Shown here one piece after another: positions 44,226 through 59,514 of a stretch of 64,000 nt of DNA. The first letter of the stretch is position 1, and every line of letters starts with the position of its first letter. The DNA is from a virus, in the IMG/VR virus record IMGVR_UViG_3300017917_000400, positions 1-64,000 of that record, one strand, 5' to 3'. Below the pieces are notes generated by a model, which saw nothing but the letters and a program-made list of their open reading frames with translations, was not told the DNA's origin and searched no databases. A program made the position numbers and the translations under genes.

Positions 44226-44648
44226 TTATACTGCAATTAAAACTAATACGTCTGCTGACGAATCGTTATCTAAGTACCACTTGTACTTGTTACCGCTGAA
44301 GTCATATGCAAGACGCTTAGTTAGTTTAGCAATAGCAATATCTCCAGGTGTTTGACCTGTTGTAGAACCAAGGATGCGAATTTCTCCGTTGGCTGCTGGC
44401 TCGCCGGAAACTAGTTTACCTGTTTTTAAATTAGTACCAGTAATAGAACTAATGCTTTCTGCTTCTGTAAATGCATCTGTAGAAGTCTTTAGAACAACGT
44501 ATGTGCTTTTACCACGTTGCTTAACAATTTGATAGTCACTGGCTAGTGAGCCGCCAAAGTAACCTTGAACTACGATGCCTGCTTGTGATGTTGTAAATGA
44601 ACGGGTAACTTTAGTACCGTATACATCTTTCTTTAATGGACGTCCCAT
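44226..44648 (-). CDS. Hypothetical virion protein downstream of the major capsid protein
   Basis: 140 aa starting MGRPL; strong AAGGAG Shine-Dalgarno and its own CTAAATA promoter at 44733-44739. Confidence 0.6.
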   Translation of the reverse strand: MGRPLKKDVYGTKVTRSFTTSQAGIVVQGYFGGSLASDYQIVKQRGKSTYVVLKTSTDAFTEAESISSITGTNLKTGKLVSGEPAANGEIRILGSTTGQTPGDIAIAKLTKRLAYDFSGNKYKWYLDNDSSADVLVLIAV

Positions 44649-44743
44649 TTGTTTTCTCCTTATGTTGACGTTTTAGGTCTACGCAGAGGGATTCTGCATA
44701 AGTTCGCTACTGCGAATATAATTTAGACATTGTATTTAGCCGC

Positions 44744-53642: not shown

Positions 53643-54509
53643 ATGGAAAACCAAGAACAACAAGGAATGAATCCTTTAAAGAAATATTTCAGACAACCAA
53701 AGATATATCTTAAATTACCTAGTAGCGGTAATTTTTATCCCAAGGGTTCAATTGAATTTACACAAAATATGGAATTTCCTGTGTATGCCATGACTGCTAG
53801 AGATGAAATCGCAATTAAAACTCCAGATGCACTAATGAATGGTCAAAGCACAGTTGACGTTATACAAAGTTGCATTCCAAATATTAAAAATGCTTGGATG
53901 ATTCCAAGTATCGACATTGATGCTATTCTTATCGCTATCCGTATTGCTACCTACGGAGAGCAAATTGATCTTGATATCAGTATTCCAAATACCACTATAA
54001 CTAAGACATATACCACAGATCTAAGATTGGCCTTAGATAAACTACTTACTGCTGTCTACGATTCAGAAATTAAAATAAATGATGAATTAACTGCGTTTAT
54101 ACGCCCTATTAACTATGAAGAATTTACTAAAAATTCAATTAAAACCTTAGAGGAACAAAGAATATTCAGCATAGTTAACAGTCAAGAAATGTCAGAACAC
54201 CAAAAAATTGAGCAGTTTAATAAAAGTTTTAAAATTTTAACAGAAATTAATGTTGGTTCTATTGTTAAAAGTATTGTTAAGATTGTTACTCCTGACGGAG
54301 AAGTAACAAATATTGATCATATTAATGAATTTGTCAACAATTCGGACACAGAGTTTTTTAACAAAGTCACAGATCATTTAGAAAAACAACGTGACAAGTT
54401 TACAATGCCTATGTTTAAAATTGTTACTACTCAAGAAGAGCGCGAACAAGGCGCTCCAGACGAATTTGAAACACCAGTATCGTTGGATGCTTCAAATTTT
54501 TTCGCATAA
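53643..54509 (+). CDS. gp26: Baseplate hub assembly protein / tail chaperone (T4 gp26-like)
   Basis: YLKLPSSG...AMTARDEI...IQSC...IDIDAILIAIRIATYGE; ends in the characteristic ..SNFF. Confidence 0.75.
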   Translation: MENQEQQGMNPLKKYFRQPKIYLKLPSSGNFYPKGSIEFTQNMEFPVYAMTARDEIAIKTPDALMNGQSTVDVIQSCIPNIKNAWMIPSIDIDAILIAIRIATYGEQIDLDISIPNTTITKTYTTDLRLALDKLLTAVYDSEIKINDELTAFIRPINYEEFTKNSIKTLEEQRIFSIVNSQEMSEHQKIEQFNKSFKILTEINVGSIVKSIVKIVTPDGEVTNIDHINEFVNNSDTEFFNKVTDHLEKQRDKFTMPMFKIVTTQEEREQGAPDEFETPVSLDASNFFA

Positions 54510-54733
54510 AGCTCTTCAACCTTAACCTCGAAGACGCACTGCGAGTCGTTGAAGGGCTTGATAAAGAAGTTAAAGCGATTCGTACAGATCTACTAAAAAT
54601 TACCTGGTACATGAGAGGTGGTATCACATTAGATGATGCCTTTGCTCTTACAGTTGAAGATCGTGAGATCATATCAGAGATTATCAAAGATAATCTAGAA
54701 ACTACTAAGAAATCAGGATTACCTTTCTTTTAA
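54497..54733 (+). CDS. gp51-like ORF, probably expressed as a -1 frameshift extension of gp26-like
   Basis: The -1 frame is open from T TTT TTC: FFRIKLFNLNLEDALRVVEGLDKEVKAIRTDLLKITWYMRGGITLDDAFALTVEDREIISEIIKDNLETTKKSGLPFF*. Its only ATG is at 54611. Confidence 0.6.
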   Translation, partial: FFRIKLFNLNLEDALRVVEGLDKEVKAIRTDLLKITWYMRGGITLDDAFALTVEDREIISEIIKDNLETTKKSGLPFF

Positions 54734-54737
54734 TATT

Positions 54738-54765
54738 ATAGATGAACTGCGTTCATCTGTTCTTC
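54738..54765 (+). terminator. Hairpin/terminator after the gp26 unit
   Basis: AGATGAAC-TGC-GTTCATCT followed by GTTCTT. Confidence 0.55.
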
Positions 54766-55176
54766 GCTATCGCTCGAACTATTTGTTTCTTTTTAATAAT
54801 AGAGCATTATTAAGTGCGAAGCACTTTAGCATTATCCAGATTGTTCAGTCACACTTTGCCCGCACAGGGCAAAGAAATGAACATTATCCGAGTTGCACAA
54901 TGTCACACAGCAGTAGAGCATTACAGTGGCGGTTGACCGGTACCACGAGCTCCGTCTTCATTCAACGGCGGCATACATTAATCTGCTATCACTAGTGTAT
55001 GCGTGAGGTTTTTCTCCTCTCTTTGGGCCTTTATTCTTTCAAACAGCAAAACTTGGGCAGTTTCAAGTCGTCGTCCTGTTAAGGATAGTTGCTGAGTACT
55101 CTTTACGGCGAGAGATTTCCGTCCCTGCGACCCGCGGTCCAGGTATAAGGGCGCATGAAGTTAGCCTGCGCGAGCT
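54766..55176 (-). ncRNA. Candidate large structured non-coding RNA (unassigned family)
   Basis: No credible ORF; GC-richer than its flanks; more than 10 helices and two possible pseudoknots. Strand is inferred from the upstream gene. Confidence 0.55.
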
Positions 55177-55620
55177 TTAACCGTTTGATTTGGCCTGTGC
55201 TTGCTCTTGAAGACGTTGCCTTAGAATGTTTGAGCCGCCTACTCTGACGTTAATGATACCATTATAGTAATCATCTGTTTCTAATACTCTGCGTTCAAAC
55301 TGTTCTCTTGCCTCTAGATATGACATTTCTGCCTTGGACTTGCAATAATAAAGTATTTCTCTAGTGAATTTTTCTGGACCTAATGCTTGTACATCTGCAT
55401 TTAATCTGTCAGAAGAACCCCAATAGTCGCGCCAATCGCTTTCTACGGTACTTCTTCTTTTAAGTTTACGGCCTTTGAGTGGTGGTTTAGTGCGTTTAAA
55501 CTGTGCTAGTTTTTTGCCTATGTACTTTTGCCCGGTTGTAAGATTGGTTATAAGATAAACAAAACCTATATAACCTTCGGGAATTTCTTCGACTAAACTG
55601 TTTTGATAGTGCCATGACAT
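55177..55620 (-). CDS. GIY-YIG endonuclease (Seg-like, nuclease domain only)
   Basis: GFVYLITN...KYIGKK, YWGSS, FTREIL, E...F...YYN. Confidence 0.88.
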   Translation of the reverse strand: MSWHYQNSLVEEIPEGYIGFVYLITNLTTGQKYIGKKLAQFKRTKPPLKGRKLKRRSTVESDWRDYWGSSDRLNADVQALGPEKFTREILYYCKSKAEMSYLEAREQFERRVLETDDYYNGIINVRVGGSNILRQRLQEQAQAKSNG

Positions 55621-55654: not shown

Positions 55655-55855
55655 TTAGTTTTGGTTTTTTTTACGTGAAGCCTGTATTTCCATTCGCCTT
55701 TTTTTACATAGATCTCTAATTGTTCTTAGATATTCTCTTGCCTGTACGCTAGATCCGTGATAGCCGTAACGTTCATATCGTTCGTTCCAGCGAGAGTACT
55801 CAATAAACGCTTTAACTAAAGAGTCGTGAGTGTCGTCTTTGATATCATCAGTCAT
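55655..55855 (-). CDS. Hypothetical protein
   Basis: 66 aa, overlaps the gp46 stop; basic helical C-terminus. Confidence 0.55.
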   Translation of the reverse strand: MTDDIKDDTHDSLVKAFIEYSRWNERYERYGYHGSSVQAREYLRTIRDLCKKRRMEIQASRKKNQN

Positions 55856-57629
55856 AAACTTCTATATCGTTAGCGTAACTAGTGAACCCGTTTTCTTTTA
55901 TTACCTTGAGCACGTTGTTCACTCGACCCACTAATTCATCCCTATGAGAAATTAGATAGATGTTCTTATTGCGTTCACGGCCCATCTTTTTCAAGATTCC
56001 TAAGGAGTTTTCAACTCCTGCGGCGTCCATGCCCGAATCAATAAGTTCATCTATGAATAAGAGATTGATGTTCTGGTATAACGACTCCCAGACATCGCGG
56101 AATGCCCAACTTAATCCTAAGATTAATCGATTCCTTTCTCCTCGTGACAGGTTATCAAAATCTAAGTCCTGCCCGAGTTGGGTTATTTCTACCGTTAGGT
56201 CATTTTGGAATACAACGGTGTGAGGTAGACCCACCTTATCAAGGTAATAAGTGAGACGATTATTCAAATAAGCAAGATTCTGATCAATAATCTTCTTACG
56301 AATAAACGAATCTTTGTTAGTTAACAGTTTTAATAAGAACTCTTGATGTTCCTTCATAGAATTTAAACTGTTAACTGAATCCCAAGACACTTCTTGTAGA
56401 GCAGTATTTTCTAATTCAACAATCTGTTCTTGATAAGTGTCAACTTCGTCTTGTTTATTTTTTAATTGAACTGCAAGACTTTCTAAATTGCTTCGATGAT
56501 TGTATGCTTCGTTTAAGGTGTCGTAGAACGTTGCGGGTCTGCCGTTGATATCTCCAATACTGTCTAATTCTTTGACAATCAACTCTAGGTCCCCTGTGAC
56601 TTTGGACAAGTATATATCTGCATCAACGAGATTTTTTTCTGCCGCTTTAATCATTTCTCCGTGCTTATGATCGTGCAATTCTTGTTCGCAGGCTGGACAA
56701 GTTTTATTTTCTAGTTGTTCAACTTCTTTACGATATTTTTTTACACTTTTATCTGCTTGCATCACAGCAGTTTCTAATGTTGCACGTTCTTTATTAAGAC
56801 TTTTAATCTTTGCTGATTGCTCGTCATAAATTTTAACTAATTCATGTTGTGCAATTTCTTGATCAATGTCTACTTTAGCCAACTCGTCTATAGCACTTTG
56901 AATTTTTGCAATATCTACATCTTTATTTTTCTGCCACACAGATTGTTTTAATTTTAAACTGTTAATACTCTCTTGAATTTTATCGTTAGATTTTTTAACA
57001 GCATCAATTCTTGCACTTTCCTGTGTAATTTCGTCTTTGGTAATACGAATTTGTTCTTTAAGTTCCTCTGCCTTTTCGCTCAACAGAGTAATACCTAACA
57101 GTTGTTCAATAATAACACGTTGATCGTTAGATTTCATACTTAAAAAAGGTTCAGTATATGTGTTCAATGCTACAACGTGTTTGAACATGTCGTGACTTAG
57201 CCCTAATAATTCGTCAATGTCTTTTTGTGTTTCGCGACTATCGCCTTGGCCTTCGTCGTCAACATCTGCGTTTTCCTGTTCTTGTTCGTCTACATAAAAC
57301 TTTAGTACATTAGGTTTACGACCACGTTCAATTCTATACAGTCTTCCGTCTTTTTCAAACTCAACAGTGACTAACATGTTCTTATTGTTAATTTTATTAA
57401 TAAGATTATCTTTTTTGATGTTAGTCAGTGCTTGTCCGTAAAGCGCATAACTTAATGCGTTTACAATAGTGGTCTTACCCGTGCCGTTTCGAGAGCCGGA
57501 ATCGTCACCTCCTTGGTCCAAGTTCTCGCCTAAGACTAGGGTAAGTTGCTCTTTATTAAAATCTACTGCCTGCGTAGCATTACCTACGCTCATAAAATTT
57601 TTAACTGTTAGATCTTTTATTTTTATCAT
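55848..57629 (-). CDS. gp46: Recombination nuclease ATPase subunit (gp46/Rad50/SbcC)
   Basis: KNFMSVGN, Walker A NGTGKTT, CPAC zinc hook, LSRGE signature, LLFIDE, ISH. Confidence 0.95.
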   Translation of the reverse strand: MIKIKDLTVKNFMSVGNATQAVDFNKEQLTLVLGENLDQGGDDSGSRNGTGKTTIVNALSYALYGQALTNIKKDNLINKINNKNMLVTVEFEKDGRLYRIERGRKPNVLKFYVDEQEQENADVDDEGQGDSRETQKDIDELLGLSHDMFKHVVALNTYTEPFLSMKSNDQRVIIEQLLGITLLSEKAEELKEQIRITKDEITQESARIDAVKKSNDKIQESINSLKLKQSVWQKNKDVDIAKIQSAIDELAKVDIDQEIAQHELVKIYDEQSAKIKSLNKERATLETAVMQADKSVKKYRKEVEQLENKTCPACEQELHDHKHGEMIKAAEKNLVDADIYLSKVTGDLELIVKELDSIGDINGRPATFYDTLNEAYNHRSNLESLAVQLKNKQDEVDTYQEQIVELENTALQEVSWDSVNSLNSMKEHQEFLLKLLTNKDSFIRKKIIDQNLAYLNNRLTYYLDKVGLPHTVVFQNDLTVEITQLGQDLDFDNLSRGERNRLILGLSWAFRDVWESLYQNINLLFIDELIDSGMDAAGVENSLGILKKMGRERNKNIYLISHRDELVGRVNNVLKVIKENGFTSYANDIEVYD

Positions 57630-58630
57630 AGATTATTATAGATAGCCAACAGAACTTTAGGATCGTAACTGTCGCTTTGAATACTGGCAATTTGATTGCT
57701 AACAATTTGATCTACACTTTCAAACTGTTGCACGTCTAAGTTAGTGTTAATTTCTACATCTTTCTTTTCAGGTATCAACGTAAGTTCTCTAATATTTTCT
57801 TGCGCCATATACGTTTCTTTAATAAAACTAGCCTCTTCAAAACTAATATCAATATCAATGCCTACTCGTAGATATGTTTTAGGCAGTATTAGTTTTTCAG
57901 AATTATCAATCAACTCGCTGAGCTTTATAGTCTTAAATTTAGGAGCACCCTCCCATATTTTATAAACAGGAGTCTTGCCGTGTTCTAAAATCATCATACC
58001 CCTATCGTCATCCCACGCATCTGCGTAGTTGTGCGGAAAAGCATTTCCAATATAGACAATATTTTGTTTGGCCTGTCGCTTGTGAAAGTGTCCGCTGAAT
58101 ACATATTCGGGATTTTTAAAATGATGTGCTTGTAATTCTCCATGGTCTGGCATCTGCACCATAGCATTCATCATAAACAACGGAAGTTCAAAGTGTCCAA
58201 ATATGTAACGACTCTTTAATTTCTCCATTTTTTTCCACTCGTCACCTACTAGCCACGGAACCATAGTAACATCATCTATAGTAGTAATGTCGCTGACAAT
58301 AGTGACACCCGGTATATGACGTCCCCAATCAACAGAATGTACATCACGTTTATCTTTGTAATATAAATCGTGATTACCTGGGAAGAAATAAAACTGATCA
58401 AATGCTTTGCCTAATTTTTCTAAACTACGAATGCTACTAACCATAGTCAGCATATTTAGGCTGTTACGATTGTGATGCCAGTCGCCTAGAAATATTCCAG
58501 TGTCACAACCTTCTTTTTTGGCTTCGGCAATAAACCAATCTACGAAATCCTCGCAGTCTTGATTGTGTACAGCAGAATTTGATTTTAGTCCAAAGTGTAT
58601 ATCTGTAAAACAGGCTATCTTTTTAAACAT
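57626..58630 (-). CDS. gp47: Recombination nuclease subunit (gp47/Mre11/SbcD)
   Basis: TDIHFG, LGD, GNHD, GHFE and SGHFH metallophosphoesterase motifs. Confidence 0.95.
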   Translation of the reverse strand: MFKKIACFTDIHFGLKSNSAVHNQDCEDFVDWFIAEAKKEGCDTGIFLGDWHHNRNSLNMLTMVSSIRSLEKLGKAFDQFYFFPGNHDLYYKDKRDVHSVDWGRHIPGVTIVSDITTIDDVTMVPWLVGDEWKKMEKLKSRYIFGHFELPLFMMNAMVQMPDHGELQAHHFKNPEYVFSGHFHKRQAKQNIVYIGNAFPHNYADAWDDDRGMMILEHGKTPVYKIWEGAPKFKTIKLSELIDNSEKLILPKTYLRVGIDIDISFEEASFIKETYMAQENIRELTLIPEKKDVEINTNLDVQQFESVDQIVSNQIASIQSDSYDPKVLLAIYNNL

Positions 58631-58677: not shown

Positions 58678-59514
58678 TCAATCTTCTCCGGTGATTGTGG
58701 GCAAATTTTCTCGTTTCATTGCATTATCGTACTCTTGATTAATCATACGAGTATAACTTGGATTCATTCCGTTTTCTTGCAAGATATCGTCTCGAATATT
58801 TTGCATTTTCTTTTCAATATTGATAACTCTAACAAATGAGTTGGTTACTGCGGCAGTAAAGTAGGCAAATGGGTTATCCGATTTACTTTCGTCAAATTGT
58901 AATCCAATTTGTGTAAGTTGCAAAATAGCCTGTCCTTTCATTTCGTCGTTATAGGTATAACCTCGAACGTTGCCACGGGTAGCATAACGCTCACAGAGTT
59001 TGATGTACATGCGAGCCAGTGTGTCTGTGATCTGTCCATGATCCTTACTAAATTTGCCTTTGATCATTCCTCCGCGCCAGTGGCTTTTTCCTACGCAGAC
59101 AAGCTCATCGTTTTCGTCAAATTTCCAATGTTGGAAGGCAGGAAAGTTTATTTTTTCTCTGTGATCTGCTTGACTCTTTGGTGTGCGTTTACGACCCGGT
59201 TCTAAAGGAATGTGATCGTAAGTCATGATGCGAAATACTAAATCTGTTTTTTCAATTTTTTTGTAATCAACTTCAAATTCTGCTAGTTTGACCTTAGTAT
59301 TTTCTGCTTTGGCTACTTCATATGCCTGCTGTGCTAGACGCTTTGCTCTAGATCTTTTTGCTTCTGCTATAGTTCTAATATTAATTTTTTCTAAACTAGG
59401 TAGAATTAGATCGTATTGATGATATTCTGGTTTGACAAAACTACAGTAGGTATTTTTACTTTTGTGTATTTCTGCTAGTAAATCTTTGTTGTTTAAGTAG
59501 TTTACTTTTTTCAT
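58678..59514 (-). CDS. gp55: Late transcription sigma factor (gp55-like)
   Basis: NYLNNKDLL...GYTYNDEM...FDESKSDNPFAYFT...F.R.I..EKK; T4 gene order 55-47-46. Confidence 0.9.
   Translation of the reverse strand: MKKVNYLNNKDLLAEIHKSKNTYCSFVKPEYHQYDLILPSLEKINIRTIAEAKRSRAKRLAQQAYEVAKAENTKVKLAEFEVDYKKIEKTDLVFRIMTYDHIPLEPGRKRTPKSQADHREKINFPAFQHWKFDENDELVCVGKSHWRGGMIKGKFSKDHGQITDTLARMYIKLCERYATRGNVRGYTYNDEMKGQAILQLTQIGLQFDESKSDNPFAYFTAAVTNSFVRVINIEKKMQNIRDDILQENGMNPSYTRMINQEYDNAMKRENLPTITGED

What the first reader, a model, noticed from the sequence alone, without database searches (positions are those of the whole stretch)
54734..55176. Large structured non-coding region directly downstream of a minimal GIY-YIG nuclease
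Seen: the longest intergenic gap in an otherwise tightly packed window (~440 nt) begins at the nuclease stop codon. On the minus strand it reads as a series of helices: GCGCA/TGCGC (55171-55151); CCTG-GACC/GGTC-CAGG (55143-55124); an H-type pseudoknot ACGG..CTCT..CCGT..AGAG (55122-55099); a three-way junction closed by CAGCAA/TTGCTG containing TCCT/AGGA and ACTTG/CAAGT; GAGG/CCTC; GCATACA/TGTATGC, whose loop (TAGCAG) can pair long-range with CTGCTG near 54910; CCGT/ACGG; GAGC-GTGG/CCAC-GCTC; CTTTGCCC/GGGCAAAG; AAGTG/CACTT. Known: Seg-type homing endonucleases normally carry extra C-terminal DNA-binding modules, whereas this 147-aa protein is essentially the nuclease domain plus a basic insert (KRTKPPLKGRKLKRR). 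Inference: the region may be an RNA partner of the nuclease (ribonucleoprotein, by analogy to IscB/TnpB RNAs), an undescribed ribozyme or large phage ncRNA, or a structured origin/packaging element. I do not recognise it as a known family.
Basis: partly seen in the sequence, partly recalled or inferred. Interest (0 to 1): 0.85.

Follow-up and report, generated by a model that had tools for sequence, protein, structure and literature searches.

The report
Full-length Polynucleobacter-1 twin-box phage RNA
The gene-free gap behind a small nuclease gene of this uncultured T4-like phage encodes a real non-coding RNA of about 440 bases with three pseudoknots; its first third is an orphan motif catalogued in 2010, it does not appear to need the nuclease, and its function is still unknown.

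Summary
Window 55184-54741 (minus strand) is a conserved non-coding RNA of about 444 nt. The remaining 300 nt or so are not in Rfam.

On 106 relatives, 89% of cells pair, against 75% when shuffled and about 40% when slid. 85 of 101 pairs show compensatory changes. Three pseudoknots are supported. Two are not: one pseudoknot strand really lies at 55184-55180, inside the last codons of the nuclease gene, and the CCGT/ACGG hairpin is unsupported.

Two single-stranded 7-nt boxes (GGAUAAU, at 54889-54883 and 54837-54831) are identical within 86 of 88 RNAs but differ between RNAs. I found no partner for them.

The nuclease-partner idea is not supported:
- Two loci carry a PD-(D/E)XK nuclease in the same slot.
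- Seven loci have other genes inserted between the nuclease gene and the RNA.
- Cultured phages have the same 147-aa protein family without the RNA.
- The RNA and the protein barely co-evolve.

This scan has already reported the same RNA family many times on other DNA.

The parts
54741..55184 (-). Whole conserved RNA (about 444 nt): the full-length form of the Polynucleobacter-1 RNA
   Evidence: Conservation across 88-135 relatives runs from the 5' pseudoknot strand to the last hairpin. Non-coding status is shown.
55041..55176 (-). 5' domain, the Rfam RF01718 match (helices P1-P4)
   Evidence: cmscan gives 108.4 bits (gathering score 37), E 1.5e-22, model positions 1-141 of 141.
55180..55184 (-). 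Pseudoknot PK1, 5' strand (ACGGU). It lies in the last two sense codons of the GIY-YIG ORF and pairs with 55109-55105 in the P3 loop.
   Evidence: 88-93% paired. Pair types AU:40, GC:23, UA:7; GC:69, AU:24; GC:84, CG:10.
55151..55171 (-). P1 hairpin (55171-55167 with 55155-55151)
   Evidence: 99.2% paired; 5 of 5 pairs compensated.
55124..55143 (-). P2 hairpin (CCUGGACC / GGUC-CAGG)
   Evidence: Helices 3-4: 91% and 82% paired, all pairs compensated.
55099..55114 (-). P3 hairpin (CUCU/AGAG); its loop 55109-55105 forms PK1
55044..55094 (-). P4 three-way junction: P4 is 55094-55089 with 55049-55044, enclosing P4a (55085-82 with 55077-74) and P4b (55069-64 with 55055-50)
   Evidence: P4 96.8% paired and P4b 97.6% paired, both with compensation.
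55005..55019 (-). P5 hairpin (GAGG/CCUC)
   Evidence: 4 of 4 pairs compensated.
54971..55002 (-). P6 long hairpin (55002-54991 with 54982-54971); its loop 54989-54983 forms PK2
   Evidence: All 12 pairs change on both sides: 9 in the main helix (91% paired) and 3 in the basal helix (72% paired).
54907..54913 (-). Pseudoknot PK2, 3' strand (CUGCUGU); pairs with the P6 loop AUAGCAG at 54989-54983
   Evidence: 95.1% paired; 7 of 7 pairs compensated.
54916..54966 (-). P8 (54952-49 with 54919-16), P9 (54946-42 with 54930-26) and pseudoknot PK3 (54966-62 with the P9 loop 54936-32). Includes the invariant block GGUAC.G...ACCGCC.
   Evidence: PK3 is 97.9% paired (UA:63/CG:42; GC:68/AU:30). P8 is 89% paired with 4 of 4 pairs compensated. 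Invariant columns are listed.
54883..54889 (-). Twin box 1 (GGAUAAU), preceded by CUC; no conserved pairing partner found
   Evidence: Identical to box 2 in 86 of 88 unique RNAs. At least 10 different words occur in the family, of pattern R-N-A-U-R-A-N.
54854..54874 (-). P10 hairpin (CUUUGCCC/GGGCAAAG) between the two boxes
   Evidence: 86% paired; 4 pairs compensated.
54831..54837 (-). Twin box 2 (GGAUAAU), preceded by UCU and the invariant GUGUGAC
54812..54826 (-). P11 small hairpin (AAGUG-CUUCG-CACUU), followed by a length-variable A/U-rich linker (54811-54780)
   Evidence: Inner pairs 83% paired with compensation; the outer pairs are poorly aligned. Linker variability is seen.
54759..54779 (-). 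P12 hairpin: covarying outer stem, tandem G-A pairs, 2-bp stem, GNRA-type tetraloop (GAUA)
   Evidence: Read from the alignment. Inner pairs are 93-95% paired with compensation. The outer stem is misaligned in A1.
54741..54757 (-). P13 terminal hairpin with conserved loop; probable 3' end. It stops 7 nt before the stop codon of the convergent gene.
   Evidence: 98.2% paired; 6 of 6 pairs compensated. No canonical U-tract terminator was found.
55177..55620 (-). 147-aa stand-alone GIY-YIG nuclease gene (neighbour of the RNA, not shown to be part of it)
   Evidence: Pfam PF19835 SegE_GIY-YIG, E 3e-35, residues 3-123. phrog_447. AF2 model with pLDDT 90; best PDB fold match is the I-TevI catalytic domain.

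Best explanation
Shown. The gap is the gene for the full-length Polynucleobacter-1 RNA, a non-coding RNA of about 444 nt read from the minus strand. It has 13 or so helices, three pseudoknots and two exposed, identical 7-nt boxes. It is conserved at a fixed place in a large clade of uncultured T4-like phages: behind the gp55-gp47-gp46-nuclease gene row and against the convergent baseplate-hub gene. Its 5' end overlaps the end of the upstream ORF and no promoter was found, so it is most likely made as the 3' end of that operon's transcript. The last hairpin would be its end.

Inferred. The RNA is a stand-alone RNA that acts in trans. It is neither a subunit nor a guide of the GIY-YIG nuclease. 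The nuclease gene is a long-standing neighbour in a slot that other small nucleases can also occupy. The knotted body most likely serves as a rigid scaffold that presents the two boxes, which lie either side of hairpin P10. The boxes are probably read by base pairing with a variable nucleic acid encoded elsewhere (phage or host), either two copies at once or two sites on one molecule. Lock-step change at four positions through at least 10 words is what a pairing partner would impose. The partner and the biological outcome remain unknown.
For: Identity: RF01718 at 108 bits, full length.

RNA and structure: 89.1% of cells paired, covariation 0.403 against 0.166 shuffled (0 of 500), 85 of 101 pairs compensated, all three pseudoknots supported. 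G-U 796 against A-C 276. No codon periodicity.

Fixed locus: 120 contigs found through an RNA pattern alone share gp46 upstream and the baseplate gene downstream. In a sample seeded with gp46, 61 of 61 loci with room have the RNA.

Independence from the nuclease:
- L065 and L119 have a PF24608 PD-(D/E)XK nuclease in the slot.
- Seven loci have other genes inserted between the nuclease gene and the RNA.
- The protein family occurs without the RNA in Melnitz (67% identical), P-SSM2, S-SRM01 and phiN3.
- Distance correlation between GIY-YIG and RNA is 0.07, against 0.20 for gp46 and RNA.
- The best GIY-YIG residue tracks the boxes less well than gp46 residues do.

Boxes: identical in 86 of 88 RNAs. 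No third covarying column in the RNA. No own-word-specific complement within 6 kb either side, or with G-U allowed from -700 to +560.
Against: There is no expression data, so the transcript, its ends and its abundance are unproven. No terminator-like site was found on the minus strand.

In 108 of 111 loci a GIY-YIG gene still lies within 2 kb upstream. A functional tie that tolerates replacement is therefore not excluded.

The trans-pairing reading of the boxes rests only on their pattern of change. No partner was found. A protein reader, or a contact within the fold, could also keep two boxes alike.

Local folding of the box regions could not be settled.
Confidence: 0.6

Rival explanations
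1. Ribonucleoprotein. The RNA binds the nuclease-domain-only GIY-YIG protein, or whichever small nuclease sits upstream, and gives it target specificity. The twin boxes would act as two short guides, as in IscB or TnpB omega RNAs.
For: The RNA starts inside the last codons of the nuclease ORF in the window. 101 of 111 loci have the GIY-YIG gene directly adjacent. The protein has no separate DNA-binding domain. The only replacement seen directly in the slot is another nuclease-only protein. The boxes vary like guides.
Against: The same RNA follows two unrelated nuclease folds, or unrelated inserted genes. The protein family is widespread without the RNA. Co-evolution is almost absent (0.07). 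No protein residue follows the boxes. The boxes are internal, only 7 nt long, and no matching target was found within 6 kb or in the 104-kb record. No transposon-like ends were seen.
Confidence: 0.07
2. Cis-acting 3' element of the operon mRNA. The structure would protect the gp55-47-46-nuclease transcript from 3' exonucleases, stop transcription running into the convergent baseplate gene, or couple its own folding to termination of translation through PK1.
For: It sits at the 3' end of a gene row, head-on to a convergent gene, and ends in a conserved hairpin 7 nt from that gene's stop. PK1 overlaps the ORF end in the window.
Against: About 440 nt with three pseudoknots, invariant unpaired blocks and co-varying twin boxes is far more than a stabiliser needs. 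In relatives the stop codon lies before or after the PK1 strand, so coupling is not conserved. The RNA stays the same when the upstream gene changes.
Confidence: 0.1
3. Landing pad. The RNA gene is a conserved target next to which free-standing homing nucleases (GIY-YIG, PD-(D/E)XK) settle. This would explain the linkage but not the RNA's own job.
For: Two unrelated nuclease families occupy the same slot. The closest cultured homologue (Melnitz) sits in a different neighbourhood. The nuclease, RNA and gp46 trees are mosaic.
Against: The nuclease is not sporadic: 61 of 61 related loci with room have it. The 147-aa family lacks the DNA-binding module of Seg-type enzymes and looks like a near-core gene of cyanomyoviruses: a named T4-like gene cluster in P-SSM2, and 784 phage records with a match.
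Confidence: 0.12
4. Catalytic RNA. The knotted fold is a ribozyme, for example one that processes itself out of the operon transcript.
For: The size, several pseudoknots and invariant unpaired nucleotides are typical of ribozymes.
Against: No Rfam ribozyme family matches even at E up to 10. No conserved cleavage-site signature was recognised. There is nothing to test it with here.
Confidence: 0.06
5. DNA-level element (origin, packaging site or protein-binding array), with the boxes as protein sites on DNA.
For: On the plus strand box 2 reads TTATCCAGA, which is 8 of 9 to the DnaA-box consensus as I recall it. The boxes themselves show no RNA pairing.
Against: There are hundreds of compensatory changes. 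The strand-specific excess of G-U (796) over A-C (276) fits RNA, not DNA. The box variants break the DnaA-box core.
Confidence: 0.02

Closest known systems
Polynucleobacter-1 RNA motif (Rfam RF01718; Weinberg et al. 2010, Genome Biol 11:R31, PMC2864571)
   Same: The first 136 nt match the whole 141-position model at 108 bits. The helices are the same (P1-P3 and the three-way junction P4). The context is the same: downstream of the GOS11034 / PSSM2_218 gene family, shown here to be a GIY-YIG nuclease family. Both are of unknown function.
   Different: The published and catalogued motif is only the first third. The RNA continues for about 300 nt with two more pseudoknots, an invariant GGUAC.G...ACCGCC block, twin 7-nt boxes, and GNRA and terminal hairpins. 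A further pseudoknot reaches upstream of the model. In 2010 it was 'not detected in any sequenced purified phage'. Here it is on well over 120 IMG/VR viral contigs.
HEARO / IscB and TnpB omega RNAs (OMEGA systems)
   Same: A large structured RNA encoded next to a small nuclease gene.
   Different: In OMEGA systems the RNA and protein are obligate partners that co-evolve. The guide is at one RNA end, matches DNA next to the element, and the pair lies inside a transposon. Here the neighbour can be swapped or separated, co-evolution is near zero, the variable boxes are internal and duplicated, and no element ends were seen.
Large orphan phage-associated RNAs such as GOLLD and ROOL (from my own knowledge)
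   Same: Several hundred nucleotides, ornate pseudoknotted folds, carried by phages or prophages, function unknown.
   Different: No sequence or model similarity (Rfam scan). Different genomic setting: T4-like recombination and late-sigma gene row rather than tRNA clusters. Twin co-varying boxes are not a described feature of those RNAs.
Seg-type free-standing GIY-YIG homing endonucleases of T4 (SegA-G) and I-TevI
   Same: The neighbouring protein has the SegE-type GIY-YIG catalytic domain. Its model superposes best on the I-TevI catalytic domain.
   Different: It is 147 aa with no C-terminal DNA-binding module. It is present in every related locus examined rather than sporadically. It belongs to a family of about 148 aa (phrog_447) that public records mislabel 'NAD synthetase'.

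Membership tests
Rfam RF01718 Polynucleobacter-1 RNA | Covariance-model score at or above the curated gathering score (37 bits) over the whole model | tested here: met
   108.4 bits, E 1.5e-22, model positions 1-141 of 141, window 55176-55041 minus strand.
Rfam RF01718 Polynucleobacter-1 RNA | Consensus helices: two 5' hairpins, a short hairpin, and a closing stem around two hairpins, kept by compensatory changes | tested here: met
   P1 99% paired, P2 82-91%, P3 94%, P4 97%, P4b 98%, nearly all pairs compensated, on 106 relatives.
Rfam RF01718 Polynucleobacter-1 RNA | Position downstream of genes of the GOS11034 family, related to PSSM2_218 of cyanophage P-SSM2 (supplement of PMC2864571) | tested here: met
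   The upstream ORF is 43% identical to PSSM2_218 (E 8e-26). 101 of 111 RNA-bearing loci have this gene directly upstream.
Rfam RF01718 Polynucleobacter-1 RNA | Fresh-water or estuary, Burkholderiales-associated origin | not testable with these tools
   The window is an unnamed IMG/VR record. The only hint is a second Rfam motif named freshwater-2 in the same window.
RNA-guided nuclease systems of the OMEGA kind (IscB/TnpB with omega RNA) | Obligate pairing and co-evolution of the RNA with one nuclease family | tested here: not met
   A PD-(D/E)XK nuclease or other genes replace or separate the GIY-YIG gene in 10 of 111 loci. The protein occurs without the RNA in cultured phages. Distance correlation is 0.07.
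RNA-guided nuclease systems of the OMEGA kind (IscB/TnpB with omega RNA) | A variable guide segment at an RNA end that matches target or flanking DNA | tested here: not met
   The only lock-step variable segments are two internal 7-nt boxes. No matching or complementary site stands out within 6 kb or in the 104-kb record.
RNA-guided nuclease systems of the OMEGA kind (IscB/TnpB with omega RNA) | Physical binding of RNA and protein, and RNA-dependent cleavage | not testable with these tools
   Needs biochemistry.
Free-standing Seg-type GIY-YIG homing endonuclease (for the neighbouring gene) | GIY-YIG catalytic domain | tested here: met
   PF19835, E 3e-35. Motif residues are invariant in 35 homologues. 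AF2 model with pLDDT 90; top PDB match is the I-TevI catalytic domain, probability 0.95.
Free-standing Seg-type GIY-YIG homing endonuclease (for the neighbouring gene) | Separate C-terminal DNA-binding module | tested here: not met
   147 aa. The Pfam domain covers residues 3-123, and only one C-terminal helix (131-146) follows.
Free-standing Seg-type GIY-YIG homing endonuclease (for the neighbouring gene) | Sporadic presence among closely related genomes | tested here: not met
   Present in 61 of 61 gp46-related loci with enough sequence.
T-box riboswitch (considered because of the GGUACCG block and codon-like boxes) | Match to the T-box covariance model, and a regulated gene downstream | tested here: not met
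   No T-box match even at E up to 10. No downstream gene on the same strand in the window.

The most novel reading that the evidence does not exclude
The RNA is a swappable targeting module for domain-only nucleases. Whichever small nuclease is encoded upstream (GIY-YIG in most phages, PD-(D/E)XK in a few) would be recruited by the knotted scaffold. The two identical 7-nt boxes would direct it to a repeated or two-fold-symmetric site in rival phage or host DNA or RNA. That would be an RNA-guided exclusion or homing system outside the Cas, IscB and TnpB families. The fast lock-step change of the boxes would then be an arms-race signature.
Probability: 0.04. Interest if true: 0.95.

Novelty: new member of a known kind. 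Interest (0 to 1): 0.5.

Why it matters
This is one of the larger and more intricate orphan RNAs of phages. It is conserved in hundreds of uncultured T4-like phage contigs. The public catalogue holds only its first third and offers no function.

Two points matter:
- The full extent, the three pseudoknots and the twin co-varying boxes give concrete handles for experiments. One can mutate the boxes, search for a partner by ligation methods, or solve the fold.
- Showing that the RNA does not depend on the neighbouring nuclease removes the most tempting, and probably wrong, analogy to RNA-guided nucleases.

For this window it is one more ordinary member of the family. The scan has already reported the same RNA many times on other DNA.

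Tried and rejected
1. Cultured phages. blastn of the region against 50,697 phage records found no match. The nhmmer profile and Rfam found nothing behind the homologous genes of Melnitz, S-SRM01 and phiN3.

2. Partner of the twin boxes. All of these were negative:
   - mutual information against every RNA column;
   - exact complement within 6 kb either side;
   - complement with G-U allowed from -700 to +560, own word against other words;
   - residues of GIY-YIG, gp46, gp47, gp55, the portal and the baseplate proteins, where GIY-YIG tracked the boxes no better than the other proteins, i.e. phylogenetic background;
   - tRNA genes, of which the 104-kb record has none;
   - word occurrences in the genome, which are at chance level.

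3. Local helices around the boxes. Pairing of the segment after box 1 with spacer 2 equals the shuffled value. Spacer 1 with spacer 2 is weak (z = 2.2), and each spacer with the box equals the shuffled value.

4. Readings of the box sequence.
   - Codon reading: NN-AUR-A-N looks like an AUG or AUA codon plus A, which suggested a T-box-like reading of tRNA. Rejected as a full explanation because positions 1, 2 and 7 also change in step, and the complement puts a pyrimidine where tRNAs carry purine 37.
   - C/D-box, CsrA-site and DnaA-box resemblances fit only some of the words.

5. Cassette co-inheritance of nuclease and RNA: rejected.

6. Group I intron with the ORF in a loop: rejected. gp46 is intact, only 34 nt precede the ORF, and Rfam shows no intron match.

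7. Scan of bacterial genomes with a pattern from the 3' domain. All 120 returned rows were chance hits in high-GC genomes, so the scan was uninformative.

8. Promoter and terminator scan: nothing on the minus strand.

Full report
**What is there.** The window is the first 64 kb of a 104-kb IMG/VR virus record, estimated 28% complete. It is a T4-like phage. Around the finding, on the minus strand, lie:
- a late-sigma gp55-like gene (58678-59514; phrog_12791);
- gp47 (57626-58630; Metallophos) and gp46 (55848-57629; AAA_23/SMC_N);
- a 66-aa ORF with no family match;
- the 147-aa GIY-YIG gene (55177-55620; PF19835, E 3e-35).

A baseplate-hub gene converges on them on the plus strand and ends at 54733. 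Between 55176 and 54734 every frame is closed.

**Known part.** An Rfam scan places RF01718 (Polynucleobacter-1 RNA) at 55176-55041 on the minus strand. The score is 108.4 bits against a gathering score of 37, and the whole model is matched. The only paper in the library that describes the motif is Weinberg et al. 2010 (PMC2864571). Its supplement says that most examples lie downstream of genes of family GOS11034 with possible homology to PSSM2_218 of cyanophage P-SSM2. It also says that the 3' half is not always detected, and that no example was seen in a sequenced purified phage. I fetched PSSM2_218. It is a 145-aa protein 43% identical to the window's nuclease (E 8e-26). The flanks printed in the 2010 seed alignment already hinted that conservation runs on downstream.

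**Full extent.** Aligning 60 nt upstream to 400 nt downstream showed conservation over the whole gap, down to about 54741. There are near-invariant blocks far outside the Rfam model. The region is non-coding. Column variability has no 3-base period (0.89/0.95/0.87, against 0.67/0.47/1.30 in the adjacent ORF), and stop-free runs average about 40 codons in every sense-strand frame.

**Structure.** I derived helices from pairwise covariation and tested them on a tool-made alignment of 106 distinct RNAs (A1).
- 89.1% of cells pair, against 75.0% after shuffling and 36-43% with partners slid.
- The covariation score is 0.403, against 0.166 shuffled (0 of 500 shuffles reach it) and at most 0.095 slid.
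- 85 of 101 pairs change on both sides.

Three pseudoknots are supported:
- PK1: 55184-55180 with the P3 loop 55109-55105.
- PK2: the P6 loop 54989-54983 with 54913-54907, with all seven pairs compensated.
- PK3: 54966-54962 with the P9 loop 54936-54932.

G-U cells (796) far outnumber A-C cells (276), so the functional strand is the minus-strand RNA, not DNA.

AAGTG/CACTT is only weakly supported (51-84% of cells pair) because it sits in a badly aligned stretch. Two items fail. The ACGG at 55122-55119 does not covary with the loop; the real partner lies in the last two sense codons of the nuclease ORF. The CCGT/ACGG hairpin is also not supported. The window sequence folded on its own is not exceptional (z = -1.6). 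The evidence is comparative.

**Twin boxes.** Earlier notes of this scan flagged two identical 7-nt words, and I checked this independently. In the window they are GGAUAAU at 54889-54883 and 54837-54831. Box 1 is preceded by CUC; box 2 is preceded by UCU and the invariant GUGUGAC. The boxes are identical in 86 of 88 unique RNAs, and the two exceptions are alignment offsets. On 152 RNAs there are 11 words of the form R-N-A-U-R-A-N. Position 1 flips often and tracks no neighbouring protein. I found no reader:
- no third covarying RNA column;
- no own-word-specific complement in cis, with or without G-U;
- no tracking residue in GIY-YIG, gp46, gp47, gp55, the portal or the baseplate proteins beyond phylogenetic background;
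- no tRNA genes in the record.

Local pairings of the box flanks are not supported.

**Relation to the nuclease.** Adjacency is the rule. Of 111 loci with enough upstream sequence, 101 have the GIY-YIG gene directly upstream. In a sample seeded with gp46 rather than with the RNA, 61 of 61 loci with room have both. But the tie is not obligate.
- In L065 and L119 the slot is filled by a 172-aa PD-(D/E)XK nuclease (PF24608, E 1e-27; phrog 'RusA-like resolvase').
- L118 has another ORF there.
- Seven loci have one or more unrelated genes between the nuclease gene and the RNA.
- The protein belongs to a family of about 148 aa (phrog_447, mislabelled 'NAD synthetase'). It gives matches in 784 phage records, mostly cyanomyoviruses.
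- In Melnitz (67% identical), S-SRM01, phiN3 and P-SSM2 no such RNA follows the gene.
- Pairwise distances of protein and RNA barely correlate (Spearman 0.07; partial 0.08). gp46 and RNA give 0.20.

The protein itself is a plain GIY-YIG catalytic domain. Its AF2 model has pLDDT 90, its best PDB fold match is the I-TevI catalytic domain, and it has a basic beta-hairpin insert and one C-terminal helix. Being domain-only is therefore a property of a widespread family, not a sign that this copy needs an RNA.

**Interpretation.** What is shown is a real, large, multiply knotted ncRNA gene. It is a member of RF01718 whose true size is about three times the catalogued motif, and it sits at a fixed locus in a big clade of T4-like phages. 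What is inferred is as follows.
- It is made as the tail of the operon transcript. There is no promoter-like site, and its 5' strand lies inside the upstream ORF.
- It works independently of the nuclease.
- Its two boxes are read by something encoded elsewhere. Base pairing with a variable nucleic acid is the simplest account of lock-step change at four positions.

The RNP/guide reading, a pure 3'-UTR role, a ribozyme and a 'landing pad' account of the linkage remain as rivals with low to modest weight. A DNA-level element is essentially excluded.

**Novelty.** For the RNA family this is already partly known (Rfam; 2010). This scan has independently reported the same 'twin-box' RNA on many other genomes. 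The window adds one more typical member. The undescribed parts (3' two-thirds, pseudoknots, boxes) are properties of the whole family rather than of this copy.

Noticed in passing
window 53643-54733 (+), slippery run at about 54496-54502: The baseplate-hub gene (288 aa, PF12322/phrog_150) is followed by a conserved 73-aa coding stretch in the -1 frame. That stretch has no start codon of its own before 54611. In 57 of 57 distinct relatives the second frame is -1 and a TTTTTTC run (often AAATTTTTTC) lies just before the first stop. This looks like a conserved programmed -1 frameshift.
   Followed up: partly
window 44646-44717 (-): A second Rfam hit, the freshwater-2 RNA (RF02980, 53.8 bits against a cut-off of 49.9), sits in one of the few other gene-free gaps of the window.
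   Followed up: no
L065:1669-2184 (-) and L119:13758-14273 (-): In two relatives a 172-aa PD-(D/E)XK nuclease (PF24608; phrog 'RusA-like Holliday junction resolvase') occupies the slot between gp46 and the RNA instead of the GIY-YIG gene. This may be a non-orthologous replacement of a small recombination or repair nuclease.
   Followed up: partly
L009, L022, L033, L039, L045, L048, L094 (between the GIY-YIG gene and the RNA): One or more genes without a clear family (257-334 aa where read) are inserted between the nuclease gene and the RNA. The RNA, including its 5' pseudoknot strand region, is kept.
   Followed up: partly
window 55177-55620 (-); P-SSM2 PSSM2_218 (L205:26712-27149): This GIY-YIG family of about 148 aa is labelled 'NAD synthetase' in PHROGs (phrog_447) and in many GenBank and RefSeq phage records. 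The label looks like a propagated misannotation.
   Followed up: partly
L126, L143, L191, L202 (downstream of their GIY-YIG genes): In these relatives the sequence profile detects only the 3' part of the RNA (from profile position about 260-340 onward), although 230-380 nt lie between the gene and the hit. The 5' domain may be replaced or strongly diverged there.
   Followed up: no
window 55655-55855 (-): A 66-aa ORF between gp46 and the nuclease gene has no Pfam or PHROG match. It has homologues only in a subset of relatives, which are mostly those whose nuclease is 85-92% identical to the window's.
   Followed up: no
window 54926-54946 (-) and 54831-54839 (+): Two resemblances recalled from memory and probably chance. 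The invariant GGUACCG...ACCGCC block resembles the core of the T-box sequence, but there is no Rfam T-box match. Box 2 read on the plus strand (TTATCCAGA) is 8 of 9 to the DnaA-box consensus.
   Followed up: partly
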